This document shows, one piece after another, positions 2 to 8,184 of a stretch of DNA of 51,253 bases. This DNA is from a phage. The notes beneath the pieces were generated by a model. The model saw only the letters and a program-made list of their open reading frames with translations, was not told where the DNA came from and made no database searches. Made by a program: the position numbers and the translations under genes. The stretch lies in the sequence record NC_105436.1; one strand, written 5' to 3'. How positions within the stretch are numbered: position 1 is the stretch's first letter; every line of letters starts with the position of its first letter.

Positions 2-727
2 ATGGCTAAAGATATTTTAGATAAAGACACCCATGACGCATTCGTTAGCTTTGAGCAGTTGGAGAGAGAAACGTTTATAGGGAATGCCCTTGCAACTGGA
101 GGCCATTACCAGGCAGTAAAGCCAAATCAATATTATAAGGTAAGCGGCAACAGATACGCTGGAAGCACCACGCCGGACGTTGTGCGCGATATGTGGAGCA
201 CGCCTCAAGAGATCGTGGAGTGGATGGAATCAGAATTTGGTGAATACGATCTCGACGCGGCAGCAAGCCAGGAAAACGCAGTTTGCGAGAAGTTCTATAG
301 CAAGGAAACAAACTGCTTAAAGCGTTGGTGGGGTAGCAACAAGCACGTATGGCTTAACCCGCCGTACAGCAACCCAACTCCATTTATCAAGAAAGCAATT
401 GAGCAAATGGAGCACAACAACCAAATTGATGTTTTGTTGCCAGCCGACAACTCTACAGCATGGTTTTATGAGGCGCAGAAAAACGCGGCTGAAATCATCT
501 GGATCACTGGCGAGGTTTACGAAGAGGGTGGAGTAGAATACTCCCGCACCGGAAGAATCGCCTTTGTGTCTGGATTGACTGGCGAGCCTGTACAGGGCAA
601 CAACAAGGGGAGCGTGATTTTTGTCATGCGAAAACTTAAAGAAGGCGAGGAGCAGAAAACGCGATACGTTAAGATCAGCGATATTTGCCCTTCTGTAACC
701 GAACGCCGCGCGCGCAAACGGAGCTAA
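2..727 (+). CDS. DNA N6-adenine methyltransferase (phage Dam-like)
   Basis: 241-aa ORF with NPPY motif (motif IV of N6-adenine MTases); RBS and box promoter appear to be supplied by the window end if the genome is circular. Confidence 0.75.
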   Translation: MAKDILDKDTHDAFVSFEQLERETFIGNALATGGHYQAVKPNQYYKVSGNRYAGSTTPDVVRDMWSTPQEIVEWMESEFGEYDLDAAASQENAVCEKFYSKETNCLKRWWGSNKHVWLNPPYSNPTPFIKKAIEQMEHNNQIDVLLPADNSTAWFYEAQKNAAEIIWITGEVYEEGGVEYSRTGRIAFVSGLTGEPVQGNNKGSVIFVMRKLKEGEEQKTRYVKISDICPSVTERRARKRS

Positions 728-1244: not shown

Positions 1245-1476
1245 GCAAGGTAGAGATGCGGTATGGAATCACGCTAAAGAATGCGGAATAGCCGACGATA
1301 TAAAGAAGATCGCGCAATACTTTGATATTGCAGATGTGAGCATAATTAGCGGCGATAAGATGACTTTCCTCAAGGAAAGGCCGCGAAAAATGGTAAGAGT
1401 TCCAGCAGTTCCAACAAAAATTGATTTCAAAGAGGCAATGGCTAAAATCCGAGAGCCTCGCAAATATTATAAATGA
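1234..1476 (+). CDS. hypothetical protein
   Basis: ORF starting at internal ATG 1234, overlapping the upstream stop by 11 nt. Confidence 0.45.
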   Translation: MKVEQGRDAVWNHAKECGIADDIKKIAQYFDIADVSIISGDKMTFLKERPRKMVRVPAVPTKIDFKEAMAKIREPRKYYK

Positions 1477-1570
1477 GGATAGTTATCATGTGGCGCTTGT
1501 TTGTTCTACCGTTACCAGTTATCATCGCTGTTACAGTTATGTACCATATAGTAATGAGATAGGTATCAGA

Positions 1571-2686
1571 ATGAAAAATGTAAAAATTACAGATGAGCAA
1601 TTCAAGATCGAACGGGCGGCAGGTAAGACATATAAACAGATCGCTCAAGAGTACGGAATGAATGTGAGAAGCGTCGAGCGTCGCGCGGCGCGCCTTGCAA
1701 AACAAGGACAGCTATCAACCATCGGAGCGCCTGGTTTTGGTGTTCATGGTGAGTCAGTAATGACTGACAAAGAAGGAAATATAATCCTCAAGTGGACCAA
1801 AACCAGCAAGGATAAAGAGCAATTAGAGGCATTGATGCGCGCAGCAATGGAGGCGTTTAGCGAGGAAGTGCCGCGATTAGATCCAGTTCCATTGCAGGAG
1901 CGTAATTATAATGAAACGCTTTCATTGTATCCGATCTTTGACATGCACTTAGGCGCTATGGCCCATAAGCACGAATGCGGCGAAAATTGGGATACTGCGA
2001 CGGCAGAGCGCGTTATGAATAACTTTATCGACTATGCTTTGATGTGCGCGCCGGACAGCGAAAAGGCTGTTATCCTGATTGGTGGAGATATGCTGCATAG
2101 CGACGGCCTGGAGGCGGTGACACCTGCAAGCGGTCACGTACTTGATCAAGATAGCCGATATGCAAAATTGGTTTACGTTGCAATACGTGCAATGCGCCGC
2201 GCAATTAATAAAATGCTGTTAAAGCATAAACATGTTGAGGTCCAGATCGTAGAGGGGAATCACGACCAATCAGGAATGATTTGGCTACGCGCAGCAATGG
2301 CGGCAGCATATGAGAACGATCCGCGCGTTTACGTTGATGTTTCTCCTCGCGTTGTTCACCACACGCAATACGGAAAAACTTTCCTTGCGTACCATCACGG
2401 GCACACAGTGCGTAAACCTGAGACTTTGCTAATGATGTGCGCGTCAGATTGGCGGGAGGACTTCGGAAACTCAAAAACGATGTATGCGCACGTAGGGCAC
2501 TGGCATCACCAGACTGTGACGGAAACGTCGCTTGGCATCGTGGAGGTGCATAGCACCCTGGCGGCAAAAGACGCATACGCCGCGCGCGGTGGCTGGAGAT
2601 CTCGACGCCGTGCAGCGGTTATCATTTACGACAAAGAGCATGGAGAAGTTGGGCGATTTGTTCACTATCCAGAAATGATGAATTGA
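1571..2686 (+). CDS. HTH domain fused to calcineurin-like metallophosphoesterase
   Basis: Start taken at ATG 1571 (MKNVKITDEQ); N-terminal helix-turn-helix-like segment (KTYKQIAQEYGMNVRSVERRAARLAKQ); phosphoesterase motifs D-x-H (FDMHLG), GDxxD (GGDMLHSDG), GNHD (EGNHDQ), and His clusters HHGH and GHWHH. Confidence 0.65.
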   Translation: MKNVKITDEQFKIERAAGKTYKQIAQEYGMNVRSVERRAARLAKQGQLSTIGAPGFGVHGESVMTDKEGNIILKWTKTSKDKEQLEALMRAAMEAFSEEVPRLDPVPLQERNYNETLSLYPIFDMHLGAMAHKHECGENWDTATAERVMNNFIDYALMCAPDSEKAVILIGGDMLHSDGLEAVTPASGHVLDQDSRYAKLVYVAIRAMRRAINKMLLKHKHVEVQIVEGNHDQSGMIWLRAAMAAAYENDPRVYVDVSPRVVHHTQYGKTFLAYHHGHTVRKPETLLMMCASDWREDFGNSKTMYAHVGHWHHQTVTETSLGIVEVHSTLAAKDAYAARGGWRSRRRAAVIIYDKEHGEVGRFVHYPEMMN

Positions 2687-2833: not shown

Positions 2834-3049
2834 ATGAAAGATTTTATTAACGCAGCTACCGCCGGATCTGGCGGTTCATCTATCGCAAGCGCCGCTACAG
2901 GTCAGTTAACCATTGCTATTGCCAGCTTTGTTTTAATGGCTGCATTCGGTGCGTGGGGCGCTTACCTTCGCTGGCGTGATAGTAAAAAATTCCACGAGGC
3001 GATAGAAAAAGGTGATATTCAAAAAGCTATTGAGATCAGGGGCAAGTAA
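2834..3049 (+). CDS. holin
   Basis: 71-aa protein with hydrophobic transmembrane segment and charged C-terminus, immediately upstream of the endolysin with TAATG overlap. Confidence 0.7.
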
Positions 3050-3540
3050 TGAGCATAAAGAACAGGGTAGCGGCTGCGGCATTTGGCGTTGCGGTTGCCT
3101 TGACTTCTCCACTTCTTGAAGAGATCGAAGGGGTAAGATACAAGCCATACAAAGATATTGCTGGAGTATGGACGGTTTGCGCAGGAATCACCGGACCAGA
3201 TGTTATCCTGGGGAAAACGTACACTAAAAAAGAGTGTGATGCTTTGTTGGCTAAACATATCCAGGTTGCTAAAAAAGAAGTTGACAAGCAGGTTAAGGTT
3301 GACATTCCTGATAGTATGCGTGCAGCAATGTACTCATTCACTTATAATGCAGGTGTGGGAGCTTTCAGAAATTCAACAATGCTGAAACTCATCAACCAGG
3401 GGAAATTAAACGAGGCTTGCGATCAGCTTTATCGTTGGACGTATTACCATAACCCCAAAACAGGAAAGCGCGAGAAGTCTAAAGGCTTACTTAACAGGCG
3501 CAAGGTCGAATACAAATATTGCACGATGGATCTGAAATGA
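3049..3540 (+). CDS. SAR endolysin (T4-lysozyme/GH24 family)
   Basis: N-terminal signal-anchor-release-like hydrophobic segment; E-x8-D-x5-T catalytic triad ([19 protein letters not shown]). Confidence 0.8.
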
Positions 3541-3932
3541 TGAAGAAATTTTTACTTACACCAATCGCAATGGCGGTGATCTTGTCTGGATGTTCAACCG
3601 TTACGCCACTGACCGGATTAATCGGCAGTAAGCCGGAAATCACAGCACAGGCTGGCGCGGAGAACGTGAAGCAGACAGTTGGCATTACAGCAAAGCAGGA
3701 CGCCAGCACAAAACAGGAAACCACAATAAAGGAATCTGCGGTTGACAAGGTGGACACGTCCAGCAAGAAGGATTTCACAACATCAACCATTCAGGCCAAT
3801 ACCATCAAGGCAGACAAAATTCAGGTCGTGCAGGGTAATAACGGCAGATGGTACGATCCGGTAATCATATGCGTGGTTGTGTTAATTGTGCTGATTTGTC
3901 TTTACTGGAGAGAAAAGAAAAAGGAGGCTTAA
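3537..3932 (+). CDS. unimolecular spanin (outer-membrane lipoprotein with C-terminal TMD)
   Basis: Lipobox LSGC after signal peptide plus C-terminal transmembrane helix ([16 protein letters not shown]); ATGA overlap with the endolysin stop; matches the T1-type u-spanin architecture. Confidence 0.7.
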
Positions 3933-7043: not shown

Positions 7044-7088
7044 ATTATGCCAGGTTTTTACACCTGGCTTTTAACAAAAAGTGCTATT
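7044..7088 (-). promoter_or_regulatory. box cassette (minus strand)
   Basis: Box + hairpin GCCAGG/CCTGGC + CATAAT at 22-nt spacing. Confidence 0.55.
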
Positions 7089-7794
7089 TTGAGTTTGACT
7101 CAAAGACGGCGCGAGCAAAGCCGCGCGGAGTGAGGGAGCGGATCATCTTTGTGCGCGATGACTTACCGCCAGTTTTGGCCCAGCCTGGATTATCTTTGTC
7201 TTCCTCTTTCGGCAGGATTAAAGCGCGCGGAGGAATAACAAAGCCGTTGCCAGTCCAGAGGCACGTTTTCTTAAAATAGCGATCCCGTGCCGGAATAATA
7301 TCAGGGAAGTCGGGATGTTTATCATCTTCCGGCAGATAGCCAGCGTAATCGCACGGATGGAACGTATAATCAGGCTTTCGCCATAACGTTGACAACTTGC
7401 CAACCGGATTTTCGATCATGTAAGGAACACCGAAATAATCAGCTATATCAGCCGCGATTCTGCAAGTGTCGGCGGCCTCATCCTGGAACGATGGATTCTC
7501 AAGGCGTTTTTTGGCCCAATGGCGAGATCCGCTATTTGCAAGGTCGGTGCACGGCGGAAATGCCATAATAAAGTCAGGAATGCCCCATTCCTCCCAGCGC
7601 GCGCGGTGGTAAAATCTTTCATCAATCCAGACGTTAACGTATTCGATATTCTCATGCTGTATGCGCACTGACTGGTAATCACCGTGATCGCCGCCGTCAG
7701 CATTAAAGCAAATGCACTTATAGCCATTATCAGCCCAATCTTTAACAGCTTTACCAGATCCATCAAATAGGGAGAATATTAAACCTTTATACAT
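7084..7794 (-). CDS. DNA cytosine-C5 methyltransferase-like protein (short)
   Basis: Start taken at ATG 7794 (MYKGLIFSLFDGSG); motif I-like FSLFDGSG, PC catalytic motif (FPPCTDLANSG), ENV-like motif (YMIENPVG); unusually short at about 237 aa. Confidence 0.5.
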   Translation of the reverse strand: MYKGLIFSLFDGSGKAVKDWADNGYKCICFNADGGDHGDYQSVRIQHENIEYVNVWIDERFYHRARWEEWGIPDFIMAFPPCTDLANSGSRHWAKKRLENPSFQDEAADTCRIAADIADYFGVPYMIENPVGKLSTLWRKPDYTFHPCDYAGYLPEDDKHPDFPDIIPARDRYFKKTCLWTGNGFVIPPRALILPKEEDKDNPGWAKTGGKSSRTKMIRSLTPRGFARAVFESNSK

Positions 7795-7804
7795 CGTAAT
7801 TACC

Positions 7805-8029
7805 TCAAAACGGAAAACAGCGCGCACAACCAGGATCGAAATCGCATCCACAATCATTAACAATCATAGTGGGATCTGCAAATATTGCGCTTGATTCAAG
7901 ATCCATATCCATATCACCTAAAGCCTCATCAAGAGTCTTAATTTTATATGCCACTTCAAGCGCCGCCTCTTTATTTAGTCCGGCATCTTCTGCCATTTGA
8001 AGGCGCTCAAAAAAACCGTCCTGACTCAT
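7805..8029 (-). CDS. hypothetical acidic protein
   Basis: 74-aa ORF, strongly acidic (D/E-rich) with a C-terminal Cys cluster. Confidence 0.45.
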   Translation of the reverse strand: MSQDGFFERLQMAEDAGLNKEAALEVAYKIKTLDEALGDMDMDLESSAIFADPTMIVNDCGCDFDPGCARCFPF

Positions 8030-8142: not shown

Positions 8143-8184
8143 TTTTCACCTCATTTAAAAGGCGGCAAAACGCCGCCAGATTAA

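What the first reader, a model, noticed from the sequence alone, without database searches (positions are those of the whole stretch)
7084..7794. Short cytosine-C5 methyltransferase-like gene alongside a Dam-like adenine methyltransferase
The minus-strand ORF has motif I-like FSLFDGSG, a PC motif and an ENP/ENV motif, but is only about 237 aa with little room for a target-recognition domain. Together with the Dam-like enzyme (2-727) the phage may methylate its DNA at both adenine and cytosine, a classic anti-restriction strategy. Alternatively the short enzyme could act on a non-DNA substrate or have an atypical specificity.
Basis: partly seen in the sequence, partly recalled or inferred. Interest (0 to 1): 0.55.

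Follow-up and report, generated by a model that had tools for sequence, protein, structure and literature searches.

The report
Known phage mini cytosine-C5 DNA methyltransferase
The gene is real and is the "Dcm-like" short cytosine-C5 DNA methyltransferase of T1-like coliphages, whose close ortholog has already been shown to make 5-methylcytosine and to set off the bacterial retron Ec86/Eco1 defence, so the finding is correct but already known.

Summary
The minus-strand ORF 7084-7794 (711 bp, 236 aa) exists as described. It carries FSLFDGSG, PPC (Cys82) and ENP (Glu128), and these residues are invariant or nearly so across homologs. The window is a Drexlerviridae (T1-like, Warwickvirus) phage. 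The protein is 100% identical to atuna_78 and 91% identical, without gaps, to the "Dcm-like C5 cytosine methyltransferase" of phage KarlJaspers.

The equivalent 711-bp gene of KarlJaspers-like phage K42 was characterised by Wang et al. (bioRxiv 2023; Cell Rep 2024). It raises 5mC in retron Ec86 msDNA, a C82A/E128A/K175A/K176A mutant does not, and phages that escape the retron have lost the gene.

The Dam-like gene at 2-727 is confirmed. It lies 6.4 kb away on the other strand.

An anti-restriction role is plausible but not shown. The CCWGG specificity was assumed in the paper, not mapped.

Verdict: ordinary and already known. Sequence specificity and the mode of DNA recognition remain open.

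The parts
7084..7794 (-). Coding sequence of the Dcm-like mini cytosine-C5 DNA methyltransferase (236 aa plus stop)
   Evidence: ORF and translation. PHROG 757 'DNA methyltransferase' at 2e-84 over the full length. 100% identical to atuna_78 and 91% identical to KarlJaspers bas06_0055.
7803..7806 (-). Shine-Dalgarno GAGG, 8 nt upstream of the ATG, overlapping the TGA (7805-7807) of the upstream 74-aa ORF
   Evidence: Sequence. Conserved in KarlJaspers. [quoted passage not shown]
7753..7779 (-). Motif I, IFSLFDGSG (residues 6-14), AdoMet-binding loop
   Evidence: D11-G14 invariant. Aligns with motif I of DNMT3B, M.HaeIII and E. coli Dcm.
7549..7560 (-). Motif IV, FPPC (residues 79-82), catalytic Cys82
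   Evidence: P81 and C82 invariant. Aligns with the PC motif of DNMT3B and Dcm. C82 is one of the residues mutated in the inactive K42 Dcm.
7402..7416 (-). Motif VI, IENPV (residues 127-131), Glu128
   Evidence: E128, N129 and P130 invariant. E128 was mutated in the K42 Dcm mutant.
7264..7293 (-). Motif VIII-like segment, PARDRYFKKT (residues 168-177), leading into strand 177-182; includes K175 and K176
   Evidence: D171, Y173 and T177 invariant; R170, K175 and K176 at least 90% conserved. Strand 177-182 in the model. K175 and K176 are called substrate-binding residues in K42 Dcm. The assignment to motif VIII is my inference.
7159..7248 (-). Roughly 30-residue segment (183-212) where canonical enzymes carry the target-recognition domain
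   Evidence: Lies between strand 177-182 and helix 213-220 of the AlphaFold model; pLDDT 66-86. Two sequence types occur among homologs, NPGWxK(T/L)GGK and GYSxQHxKLGGK.
7108..7143 (-). Invariant C-terminal motif IRSLTPRGFARA (residues 218-229), motif IX/X equivalent
   Evidence: I218-R224 invariant. The best local BLASTP match to E. coli Dcm falls on its RRLTPRECARLMGF segment (not significant). Helices 213-220 and 224-234.
2..727 (+).
   Evidence: PF05869 at 1e-61, TIGR01712 at 1e-53 above its cut-off, PHROG 111.

Best explanation
The ORF encodes an active, orphan, S-adenosylmethionine-dependent DNA cytosine-C5 methyltransferase. It belongs to the 'Dcm-like' mini family that is widespread in enterobacterial and other phages.

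The chemistry is inferred from the established C5-methyltransferase mechanism. The target cytosine is flipped out, Cys82 of the PPC motif attacks C6, Glu128 of the ENP motif protonates N3, and the methyl group of AdoMet, held by the FxGxG loop, is transferred to C5.

The enzyme consists almost entirely of the catalytic domain. DNA contacts must come from three places: the roughly 30-residue segment 183-212, the family-specific conserved insert 151-176 (including K175 and K176), and the invariant IRSLTPR helix. This part is inference.

The gene sits in the minus-strand gene block that also holds the helicase. The enzyme would methylate replicating phage DNA and any other accessible duplex DNA in the cell. 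The likely benefit is protection of short, frequent sites from host restriction, acting together with the phage Dam; this has not been shown.

The demonstrated cost is that methylation of the stem-loop of retron Ec86/Eco1 msDNA switches on that abortive-infection system. This phage is therefore predicted to be sensed by Eco1.
For: Identity: the protein is 100% identical to atuna_78 and 91% identical (214/236, no gaps) to KarlJaspers bas06_0055, 'Dcm-like C5 cytosine methyltransferase'. The flanking genes are the same: a DUF3987 helicase, two small ORFs downstream and a 74-aa ORF upstream.

Published function of the ortholog in KarlJaspers-like phage K42: a 711-bp gene whose key residues are C82, E128, K175 and K176, the same positions and residues as here. 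Expression raises 5mC in Ec86 msDNA by LC-MS, while the quadruple mutant and the empty vector do not. Four retron escapers delete, frameshift or hit the ribosome-binding region of the gene. Later papers cite this as established.

Selection: the catalytic residues are invariant across homologs.

DNA substrate: a family member (P0260) is fused to a D12-class DNA adenine methyltransferase.
Against: Pfam PF00145 and NCBIfam give no hit at E <= 1 for this protein. Only 8 of 78 diverse relatives give sub-threshold PF00145 hits, the best at E 0.0039. A family profile against PDB sequences reaches only E 0.15, covering motifs I-IV. hhalign against E. coli Dcm gives about 1% probability.

No activity data exist for this exact protein, and I found no methylome of virion DNA for any Drexlerviridae phage.

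The CCWGG target was assumed from host Dcm, not mapped. msDNA from dcm+ MG1655 carried little 5mC without the phage enzyme, which is odd if both enzymes modify the same site.
Confidence: 0.85

Rival explanations
1. The protein is a C5-methyltransferase-fold enzyme with different chemistry or a different substrate. It might methylate RNA as DNMT2 does, or transfer a group other than methyl (for example carboxymethyl from Cx-SAM), or serve as one step in a DNA hypermodification pathway.
Against: The K42 ortholog yields 5mC in DNA by LC-MS. No hypermodification genes sit nearby; the neighbours are small unknown ORFs and a helicase. One relative is fused to a DNA adenine methyltransferase. All the structural hits share the same fold, so hitting 8yf3 or DNMT2 does not separate these chemistries.
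Confidence: 0.05
2. The protein is a catalytically dead methyltransferase-like DNA-binding protein, or a decaying gene, that no longer methylates anything.
For: It is unusually short and standard C5-MTase profiles fail. The second arginine of the canonical QxRxR motif VIII is not conserved: the consensus is RDAY.
Against: The AdoMet-loop residues, Cys82 and Glu128 are invariant across hundreds of distinct relatives. The 210-260 aa length is the family norm rather than a truncation: 67 of 78 representatives are at most 270 aa, with a median of 241. The ortholog's activity depends on the catalytic residues.
Confidence: 0.03
3. The enzyme is an active DNA C5-methyltransferase, but its target is not the host-type CCWGG. 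It may recognise a shorter or relaxed motif, or depend on DNA structure, as the minimal recognition segment might suggest.
For: There is no detectable homology to E. coli Dcm or its recognition domain (BLASTP E 2.5, hhalign about 1%). Only about 30 residues occupy the recognition-domain position. The closest structural relatives are DNMT3 enzymes, which read CpG through short loops. In dcm+ MG1655 the msDNA had little 5mC until the phage enzyme was expressed, and the authors mention toxicity of the enzyme itself.
Against: Changing the CCTGG of the msDNA stem to AATGG, ACTGG or CATGG abolished defence against K42. CCWGG is not depleted in this genome, 128 observed against 132 expected, which fits a protected site. 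A phage copy of each of the two host orphan specificities (Dam GATC and Dcm CCWGG) would be a coherent strategy; that point is inference.
Confidence: 0.3

Closest known systems
Dcm of phage K42 (KarlJaspers strain Hzau42), the trigger of retron Ec86/Eco1 (Wang et al., bioRxiv 10.1101/2023.08.16.553469; Cell Rep 2024;43:114857)
   Same: Same gene length (711 bp) and the same residues at positions 82, 128, 175 and 176. The window protein is 91% identical to the KarlJaspers Bas06 protein. Both are from subfamily Tempevirinae of Drexlerviridae (this window matches Warwickvirus, KarlJaspers is a Hanrivervirus), and the flanking genes are the same.
   Different: About 9% of residues differ from KarlJaspers, almost all in the N-terminal half; residues 121-191 are identical. 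The K42 sequence itself was not available for comparison. No experiment has been done on this exact protein.
DNMT3A/DNMT3B catalytic domain (eukaryotic de novo CpG methyltransferases)
   Different: Only 14-18% identity. The DNMT3B catalytic domain is 291 aa against 236 here. DNMT3 works as a tetramer with DNMT3L or itself, and nothing is known about oligomerisation here. The resemblance is more likely convergent minimisation or distant common ancestry than specific relatedness; that is inference.
E. coli Dcm / M.EcoRII-type CCWGG methyltransferases
   Same: Same superfamily fold and chemistry. The K42 paper assigns the same CCWGG target. The public annotations 'dcm' and 'Dcm-like' refer to this enzyme.
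   Different: Dcm is 472 aa. There is no significant sequence similarity (BLASTP E 2.5; hhalign probability about 1%). There is no homologous recognition domain, and no adjacent vsr.
Canonical bacterial type II C5-methyltransferases (M.HhaI, M.HaeIII, M.MpeI; Pfam PF00145)
   Different: Those enzymes are 327-388 aa with a large recognition domain between motifs VIII and IX (for the lengths; established knowledge for the architecture). This protein does not reach any PF00145 score and has no restriction-enzyme partner.

Membership tests
DNA cytosine-C5 methyltransferase superfamily | Motif I FxGxG AdoMet-binding loop after the first strand | tested here: met
   FSLFDGSG at residues 7-14 follows strand 5-9. 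D11-G14 are invariant in 30 homologs. It aligns in register with DNMT3B, M.HaeIII and Dcm.
DNA cytosine-C5 methyltransferase superfamily | Motif IV Pro-Cys with the catalytic cysteine after strand 4 | tested here: met
   FPPC at 79-82 follows strand 75-78 and is followed by a flexible loop of low pLDDT. P81 and C82 are invariant.
DNA cytosine-C5 methyltransferase superfamily | Motif VI ENV with the glutamate that protonates N3 | tested here: met
   IENPV at 127-131 ends strand 125-128. E128, N129 and P130 are invariant.
DNA cytosine-C5 methyltransferase superfamily | Motif VIII QxRxR | tested here: inconclusive
   PARDRYFKKT lies before strand 177-182. R170 is at least 90% conserved and D171 is invariant, but the second Arg is Ala in most homologs (consensus RDAY). 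The assignment rests on position only.
DNA cytosine-C5 methyltransferase superfamily | Significant match to the curated sequence profile (Pfam PF00145 or NCBIfam models) | tested here: not met
   There is no hit at E <= 1. Of 78 relatives, 8 give sub-threshold hits, the best at E 0.0039.
DNA cytosine-C5 methyltransferase superfamily | Catalytic-domain fold closest to solved C5-methyltransferases | tested here: met
DNA cytosine-C5 methyltransferase superfamily | Sizeable target-recognition domain between motifs VIII and IX | tested here: not met
   Only about 30 residues (183-212) separate strand 177-182 from helix 213-220. The whole protein is 55-150 aa shorter than the solved enzymes it matches.
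DNA cytosine-C5 methyltransferase superfamily | Formation of 5-methylcytosine in DNA | not testable with these tools
   This was reported for the K42 ortholog by LC-MS with a catalytic-mutant control. It has not been measured for this protein.
Phage 'Dcm-like' mini methyltransferases (PHROG 757; K42 Dcm family) | Full-length match to the family profile and family-typical length | tested here: met
   PHROG 757 matches at 2e-84 over residues 2-235. There are 3033 clusters at 90% identity and 1175 representatives at 50% identity, mostly 210-260 aa. Homologs occur in 1498 of 50,697 phage records.
Phage 'Dcm-like' mini methyltransferases (PHROG 757; K42 Dcm family) | Orthology to the characterised enzyme: high identity, the same key residues and the same gene neighbourhood | tested here: met
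   The protein is 91% identical to KarlJaspers bas06_0055 with no gaps, and C82, E128, K175 and K176 are in place. The helicase, small-ORF and upstream-ORF neighbours are the same.
Phage 'Dcm-like' mini methyltransferases (PHROG 757; K42 Dcm family) | Activates retron Ec86/Eco1 | not testable with these tools
   Shown for K42. For this phage it is a prediction only.
E. coli Dcm / EcoRII-type CCWGG methyltransferases | Sequence homology to Dcm, including its recognition domain | tested here: not met
   BLASTP E 2.5. hhalign of the family profiles against Dcm gives probability about 1%, aligned over motifs I-IV only.
E. coli Dcm / EcoRII-type CCWGG methyltransferases | Methylation of the inner cytosine of CCWGG | not testable with these tools
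   This was assumed for K42 Dcm and supported only indirectly by msDNA stem mutants.
Phage Dam (PF05869 / TIGR01712), for ORF 2-727 | Match above the curated cut-offs | tested here: met
   PF05869 scores 208 bits against a cut-off of 28. TIGR01712 scores 181 bits against a cut-off of 97.

The most novel reading that the evidence does not exclude
This 236-aa family may be a minimal cytosine-C5 DNA methyltransferase that recognises DNA without a canonical target-recognition domain. Its true specificity may not be the host-type CCWGG assumed in the literature. It could be a shorter, relaxed or structure-dependent target, read by the 183-212 loop, the conserved 151-176 insert and perhaps a DNMT3-like dimer. 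That would explain why the enzyme, and not host Dcm, activates retron Eco1 in dcm+ cells.
Probability: 0.3. Interest if true: 0.45.

Novelty: already known. Interest (0 to 1): 0.2.

Why it matters
As it stands this is confirmation of an annotated, experimentally anchored gene, and it adds little. Three practical points follow.

1. Standard profile libraries (Pfam PF00145, NCBIfam) miss this very common phage family, which occurs in about 3% of deposited phage genomes. Many records call it hypothetical.
2. A phage carrying it is predicted to be sensed by retron Eco1. That matters when choosing hosts or phages for therapy or defence-system assays.
3. The enzyme's specificity and its way of reading DNA without a recognition domain have not been mapped in anything I could read. 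A 27-kDa C5-methyltransferase with a defined short target could be a useful tool.

Tried and rejected
- Pfam and NCBIfam scans of the protein gave nothing at E <= 1.
- phmmer, and a 30-sequence family profile, against PDB sequences gave only non-significant DNMT3B and M.HaeIII hits at E 0.05-0.6.
- BLASTP and hhalign against E. coli K-12 Dcm were not significant, so 'Dcm-like' is not a homology statement about specificity.
- The afdb50 fold library was not available.
- The published Cell Reports version of the retron paper is not held. I relied on the preprint and on citing papers.
- Searches for a methylome or 5mC measurement of Drexlerviridae virion DNA found nothing relevant.
- My first guess at the KarlJaspers accession (MZ501071) was phage GottfriedDienst. 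MZ501090 was correct.
- I considered and rejected the longer TTG-initiated 259-aa ORF (7863) and the 257-aa gene call (P0001), for lack of a ribosome-binding site and because of overlap with the upstream ORF.
- I considered a restriction-modification pair. No nuclease-like neighbour was found, so the enzyme is an orphan.
- Plus-strand ORFs inside 7084-7794 (59, 48 and 50 aa) are mechanical.

Full report
**1. What is in the sequence**

On the minus strand an ORF runs from ATG at 7794 to TAG at 7084-7086. It is 711 bp and 236 aa. The mechanical ORF list extends it to a TTG at 7863, but the ATG at 7794 is the better start for three reasons:
- A GAGG Shine-Dalgarno at 7803-7806 precedes it, overlaps the TGA of the upstream 74-aa ORF (7805-8029), and is conserved in phage KarlJaspers.
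- The GenBank annotations of phages atuna and KarlJaspers both give 711 bp.
- Published retron-escape mutants of a related phage carry a substitution 9 bp upstream of this start.

The ORF at 2-727 (+) is a phage Dam, matching PF05869 at E 1e-61 and TIGR01712 above its cut-off. It lies 6.4 kb away on the opposite strand, so 'alongside' is loose.

**2. Where the window comes from**

The region is 98-99% identical to Escherichia phages vB_EcoS-95, atuna, SECphi27 and relatives. These belong to Drexlerviridae, Tempevirinae, Warwickvirus, the T1-like siphoviruses. The protein is 100% identical to atuna_78.

Public records annotate the gene variously as 'DNA-cytosine methylase', 'dcm', 'Dcm-like C5 cytosine methyltransferase', 'putative site specific DNA methylase' or 'hypothetical protein'.

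**3. The family**

- tblastn finds a homolog in 1498 of 50,697 phage records. These span Drexlerviridae, Dhillonvirus, rV5-like and Phapecoctavirus myoviruses, Klebsiella Webervirus, and Vibrio, Erwinia, Proteus and even Arthrobacter phages.
- The large protein collection holds 3033 clusters at 90% identity and 1175 representatives at 50% identity.
- Lengths are mostly 210-260 aa. Among 78 diverse representatives the median is 241 aa, and 67 are at most 270 aa. The short architecture is therefore the norm, not a truncation.
- In 30 homologs of 54-83% identity, the invariant residues are D11-G14, N31, H37-G38, P81-C82, E128-N129-P130, D171, Y173, T177, G209-G210 and I218-R224.
- In 78 representatives of 31-56% identity, C82, E128, N129, D171, K175, T177, R219 and P223 stay at least 90% conserved.

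This pattern is that of an enzyme under purifying selection.

**4. Is it a C5-methyltransferase?**

Sequence profiles say little:
- Pfam PF00145 and NCBIfam give no hit at E <= 1.
- Only 8 of 78 relatives give sub-threshold PF00145 hits, the best at E 0.0039.
- phmmer and a family profile against PDB sequences return only DNMT3B and M.HaeIII, at E 0.05-0.6 and over motifs I-IV.
- PHROG 757 ('DNA methyltransferase') matches at 2e-84, but that is the family's own profile.

Structure is clearer:
- The AlphaFold2 model has pLDDT 86 and pTM 0.86. It is an alternating strand-helix domain with a low-confidence loop right after the PPC motif. Inference from established structures: this corresponds to the mobile catalytic loop.
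- Foldseek ranks DNMT3B/3A first at E 4e-6, with modest TM-scores of 0.43-0.53.
- In the viral structure library, neighbours outside the family are again cytosine methyltransferases.

**5. Anatomy**

Reading the model against the conserved motifs:
- Strand 5-9 plus the FxGxG loop: motif I.
- Strand 26-30, CICFN: the motif II region.
- Strand 75-78 plus PPC: motif IV.
- Helix 103-121.
- Strand 125-128 plus ENP: motif VI.
- Strand 143-145.
- A family-specific conserved insert, 151-176 (GGYLPEDDxHPxFPDxIPxRDAYxKK).
- Strand 177-182.
- A segment of about 30 residues, 183-212.
- Helices 213-220 and 224-234, carrying the invariant IRSLTPR.

Canonical enzymes place a recognition domain of many tens of residues where 183-212 sits (established knowledge). 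The solved enzymes matched here are 291-388 aa, and E. coli Dcm is 472 aa.

The 183-212 segment comes in two sequence types among homologs, NPGWxK(T/L)GGK as here and GYSxQHxKLGGK. These may mark different specificities; that is inference.

**6. What is already known experimentally**

Wang et al. (bioRxiv 10.1101/2023.08.16.553469, published as Cell Rep 2024;43:114857) isolated four mutants of phage K42 that escape retron Ec86/Eco1. K42 is a KarlJaspers-like Drexlerviridae phage.
- All four mutants disrupt a 711-bp gene for a 'Dcm-like C5 cytosine methyltransferase'.
- Expressing the gene is toxic only in cells that carry the retron.
- The authors identified C82, E128, K175 and K176 from an AlphaFold model superposed on DNMT3A, and a quadruple alanine mutant is inert.
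- LC-MS showed high 5mC in msDNA with the wild-type enzyme and low 5mC with the mutant or the empty vector.
- Of 35 Ec86-sensitive phages, 34 encode the enzyme.

The window protein has the same residues at the same positions. It is 91% identical, without gaps, to the KarlJaspers Bas06 protein, with residues 121-191 fully identical. The gene neighbourhood is the same. It is therefore an ortholog of a characterised enzyme, and later literature treats the result as established.

**7. What is not settled**

a. Specificity.
- The paper takes CCWGG from host Dcm. The supporting evidence is that replacing the CCTGG in the msDNA stem abolishes defence. Such changes could also disturb contacts with the effector.
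- The phage protein has no detectable similarity to E. coli Dcm: BLASTP E 2.5, and hhalign probability about 1%. Specificity therefore cannot be inferred by homology.
- The experiments were done in dcm+ MG1655, where msDNA carried little 5mC until the phage enzyme was added.
- I put about 0.3 on a target other than host-type CCWGG.

b. Benefit to the phage.
- In this genome GATC (307 observed, 304 expected) and CCWGG (128, 132) are not depleted.
- By contrast, 27 of the 64 palindromic hexamers are entirely absent, against 2.4% of non-palindromic hexamers.
- This fits a division of labour in which long sites are avoided and short, unavoidable sites are masked by methylation. The fit is circumstantial, because other 4-mers such as GCGC are not depleted either.

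c. No measurement of 5mC in virion DNA was found for this group of phages.

**8. Rivals**

- A non-DNA substrate or a different transferred group is unlikely. The ortholog makes 5mC in DNA, one relative is fused to a D12-class DNA adenine methyltransferase (P0260), and other relatives are embedded in giant helicase-containing phage proteins.
- A dead enzyme is unlikely given the invariant catalytic residues.
- A restriction-modification pair is excluded because no nuclease-like neighbour is present.

**9. Verdict**

- The interpretation as a short C5-methyltransferase is right, and the anti-restriction role is plausible but unproven.
- The gene is already annotated in many public genomes and its ortholog is characterised, so the novelty class is 'already known' and the interest is low.
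- The residual open question is how a 236-aa enzyme without a recognition domain selects its target, and what that target really is.

Noticed in passing
window 1-51253: Strong avoidance of 6-bp palindromes. Of the 64 palindromic hexamers, 27 are absent and 31 occur at most once. Examples are AAGCTT, GGATCC, GATATC, CTGCAG, GTCGAC, and TCCGGA with about 21 expected. Only 2.4% of non-palindromic hexamers are absent. In total 548 palindromic hexamers are observed against about 828 expected. The 4-5-mers GATC, CCWGG and GCGC are not depleted.
   Followed up: partly
window 7049-7068 (-): A conserved hairpin, GCCAGGT-GTAAAA-ACCTGGC, lies in the 69-nt spacer between the methyltransferase stop and the next gene. 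Both arms are CCWGG sites. It is conserved in atuna and KarlJaspers, with one loop change. The spacer folds at -18.1 kcal/mol, z = -3.1, and no T-run follows. Its function is unknown; it may be an RNA stability or processing element.
   Followed up: partly
P0260 (563 aa, metagenomic relative): This is a natural fusion of the mini C5-methyltransferase domain (N-terminal) with a D12-class N6-adenine DNA methyltransferase (PF02086, residues 303-546, E 2.5e-48).
   Followed up: partly
BFVD entries A0A6J5SE15 (1397 aa) and A0A6J5NPY6 (1126 aa): Structural relatives of the mini methyltransferase (TMq 0.62, 26% identity) occur as domains inside very large phage proteins of uncultured Caudovirales; A0A6J5SE15 is annotated 'Helicase/UvrB, N-terminal' and A0A6J5NPY6 is uncharacterised.
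   Followed up: no
phage records MG0656xx ('Campylobacter phage' C15, A143, E6, A120 and others): Between 20 and 39 records labelled Campylobacter phage carry this T1-like or rV5-like E. coli phage region at up to about 80% nucleotide identity and 46-54% protein identity. The host labels look doubtful.
   Followed up: no
window 7084-7863 (-) versus P0001: Automated gene calls in the large protein collection use an upstream start. P0001 is 257 aa with 320 member sequences, and other clusters run 255-262 aa. This adds about 20 residues that overlap the upstream ORF, whereas curated phage records use the 236-aa form.
   Followed up: partly
window 7084-7794 versus SECphi27 LT961732.1 7085-7795: The gene's coordinates in the window are offset by a single base from those in the SECphi27 record. 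The window is therefore co-linear with, and starts at the same point as, that type of genome record, at the Dam gene.
   Followed up: no
window 8161-8177 (-): A GC-rich hairpin, GGCGGCG-TTT-TGCCGCC, followed by TTTT resembles a terminator. It lies on the minus strand about 130 nt upstream of the 74-aa ORF that precedes the methyltransferase. It may delimit the transcription unit.
   Followed up: no
window 1421-2686 (+) and 2834-3932 (+): A 421-aa protein shows weak, sub-threshold Pfam hits to N-terminal helix-turn-helix domains and to a metallophosphatase domain, and matches PHROG 704 'DNA repair exonuclease' at 3e-148. It is followed by a block of ORFs at 2834-3932 co-linear with the holin, endolysin and u-spanin genes annotated in KarlJaspers.
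   Followed up: no
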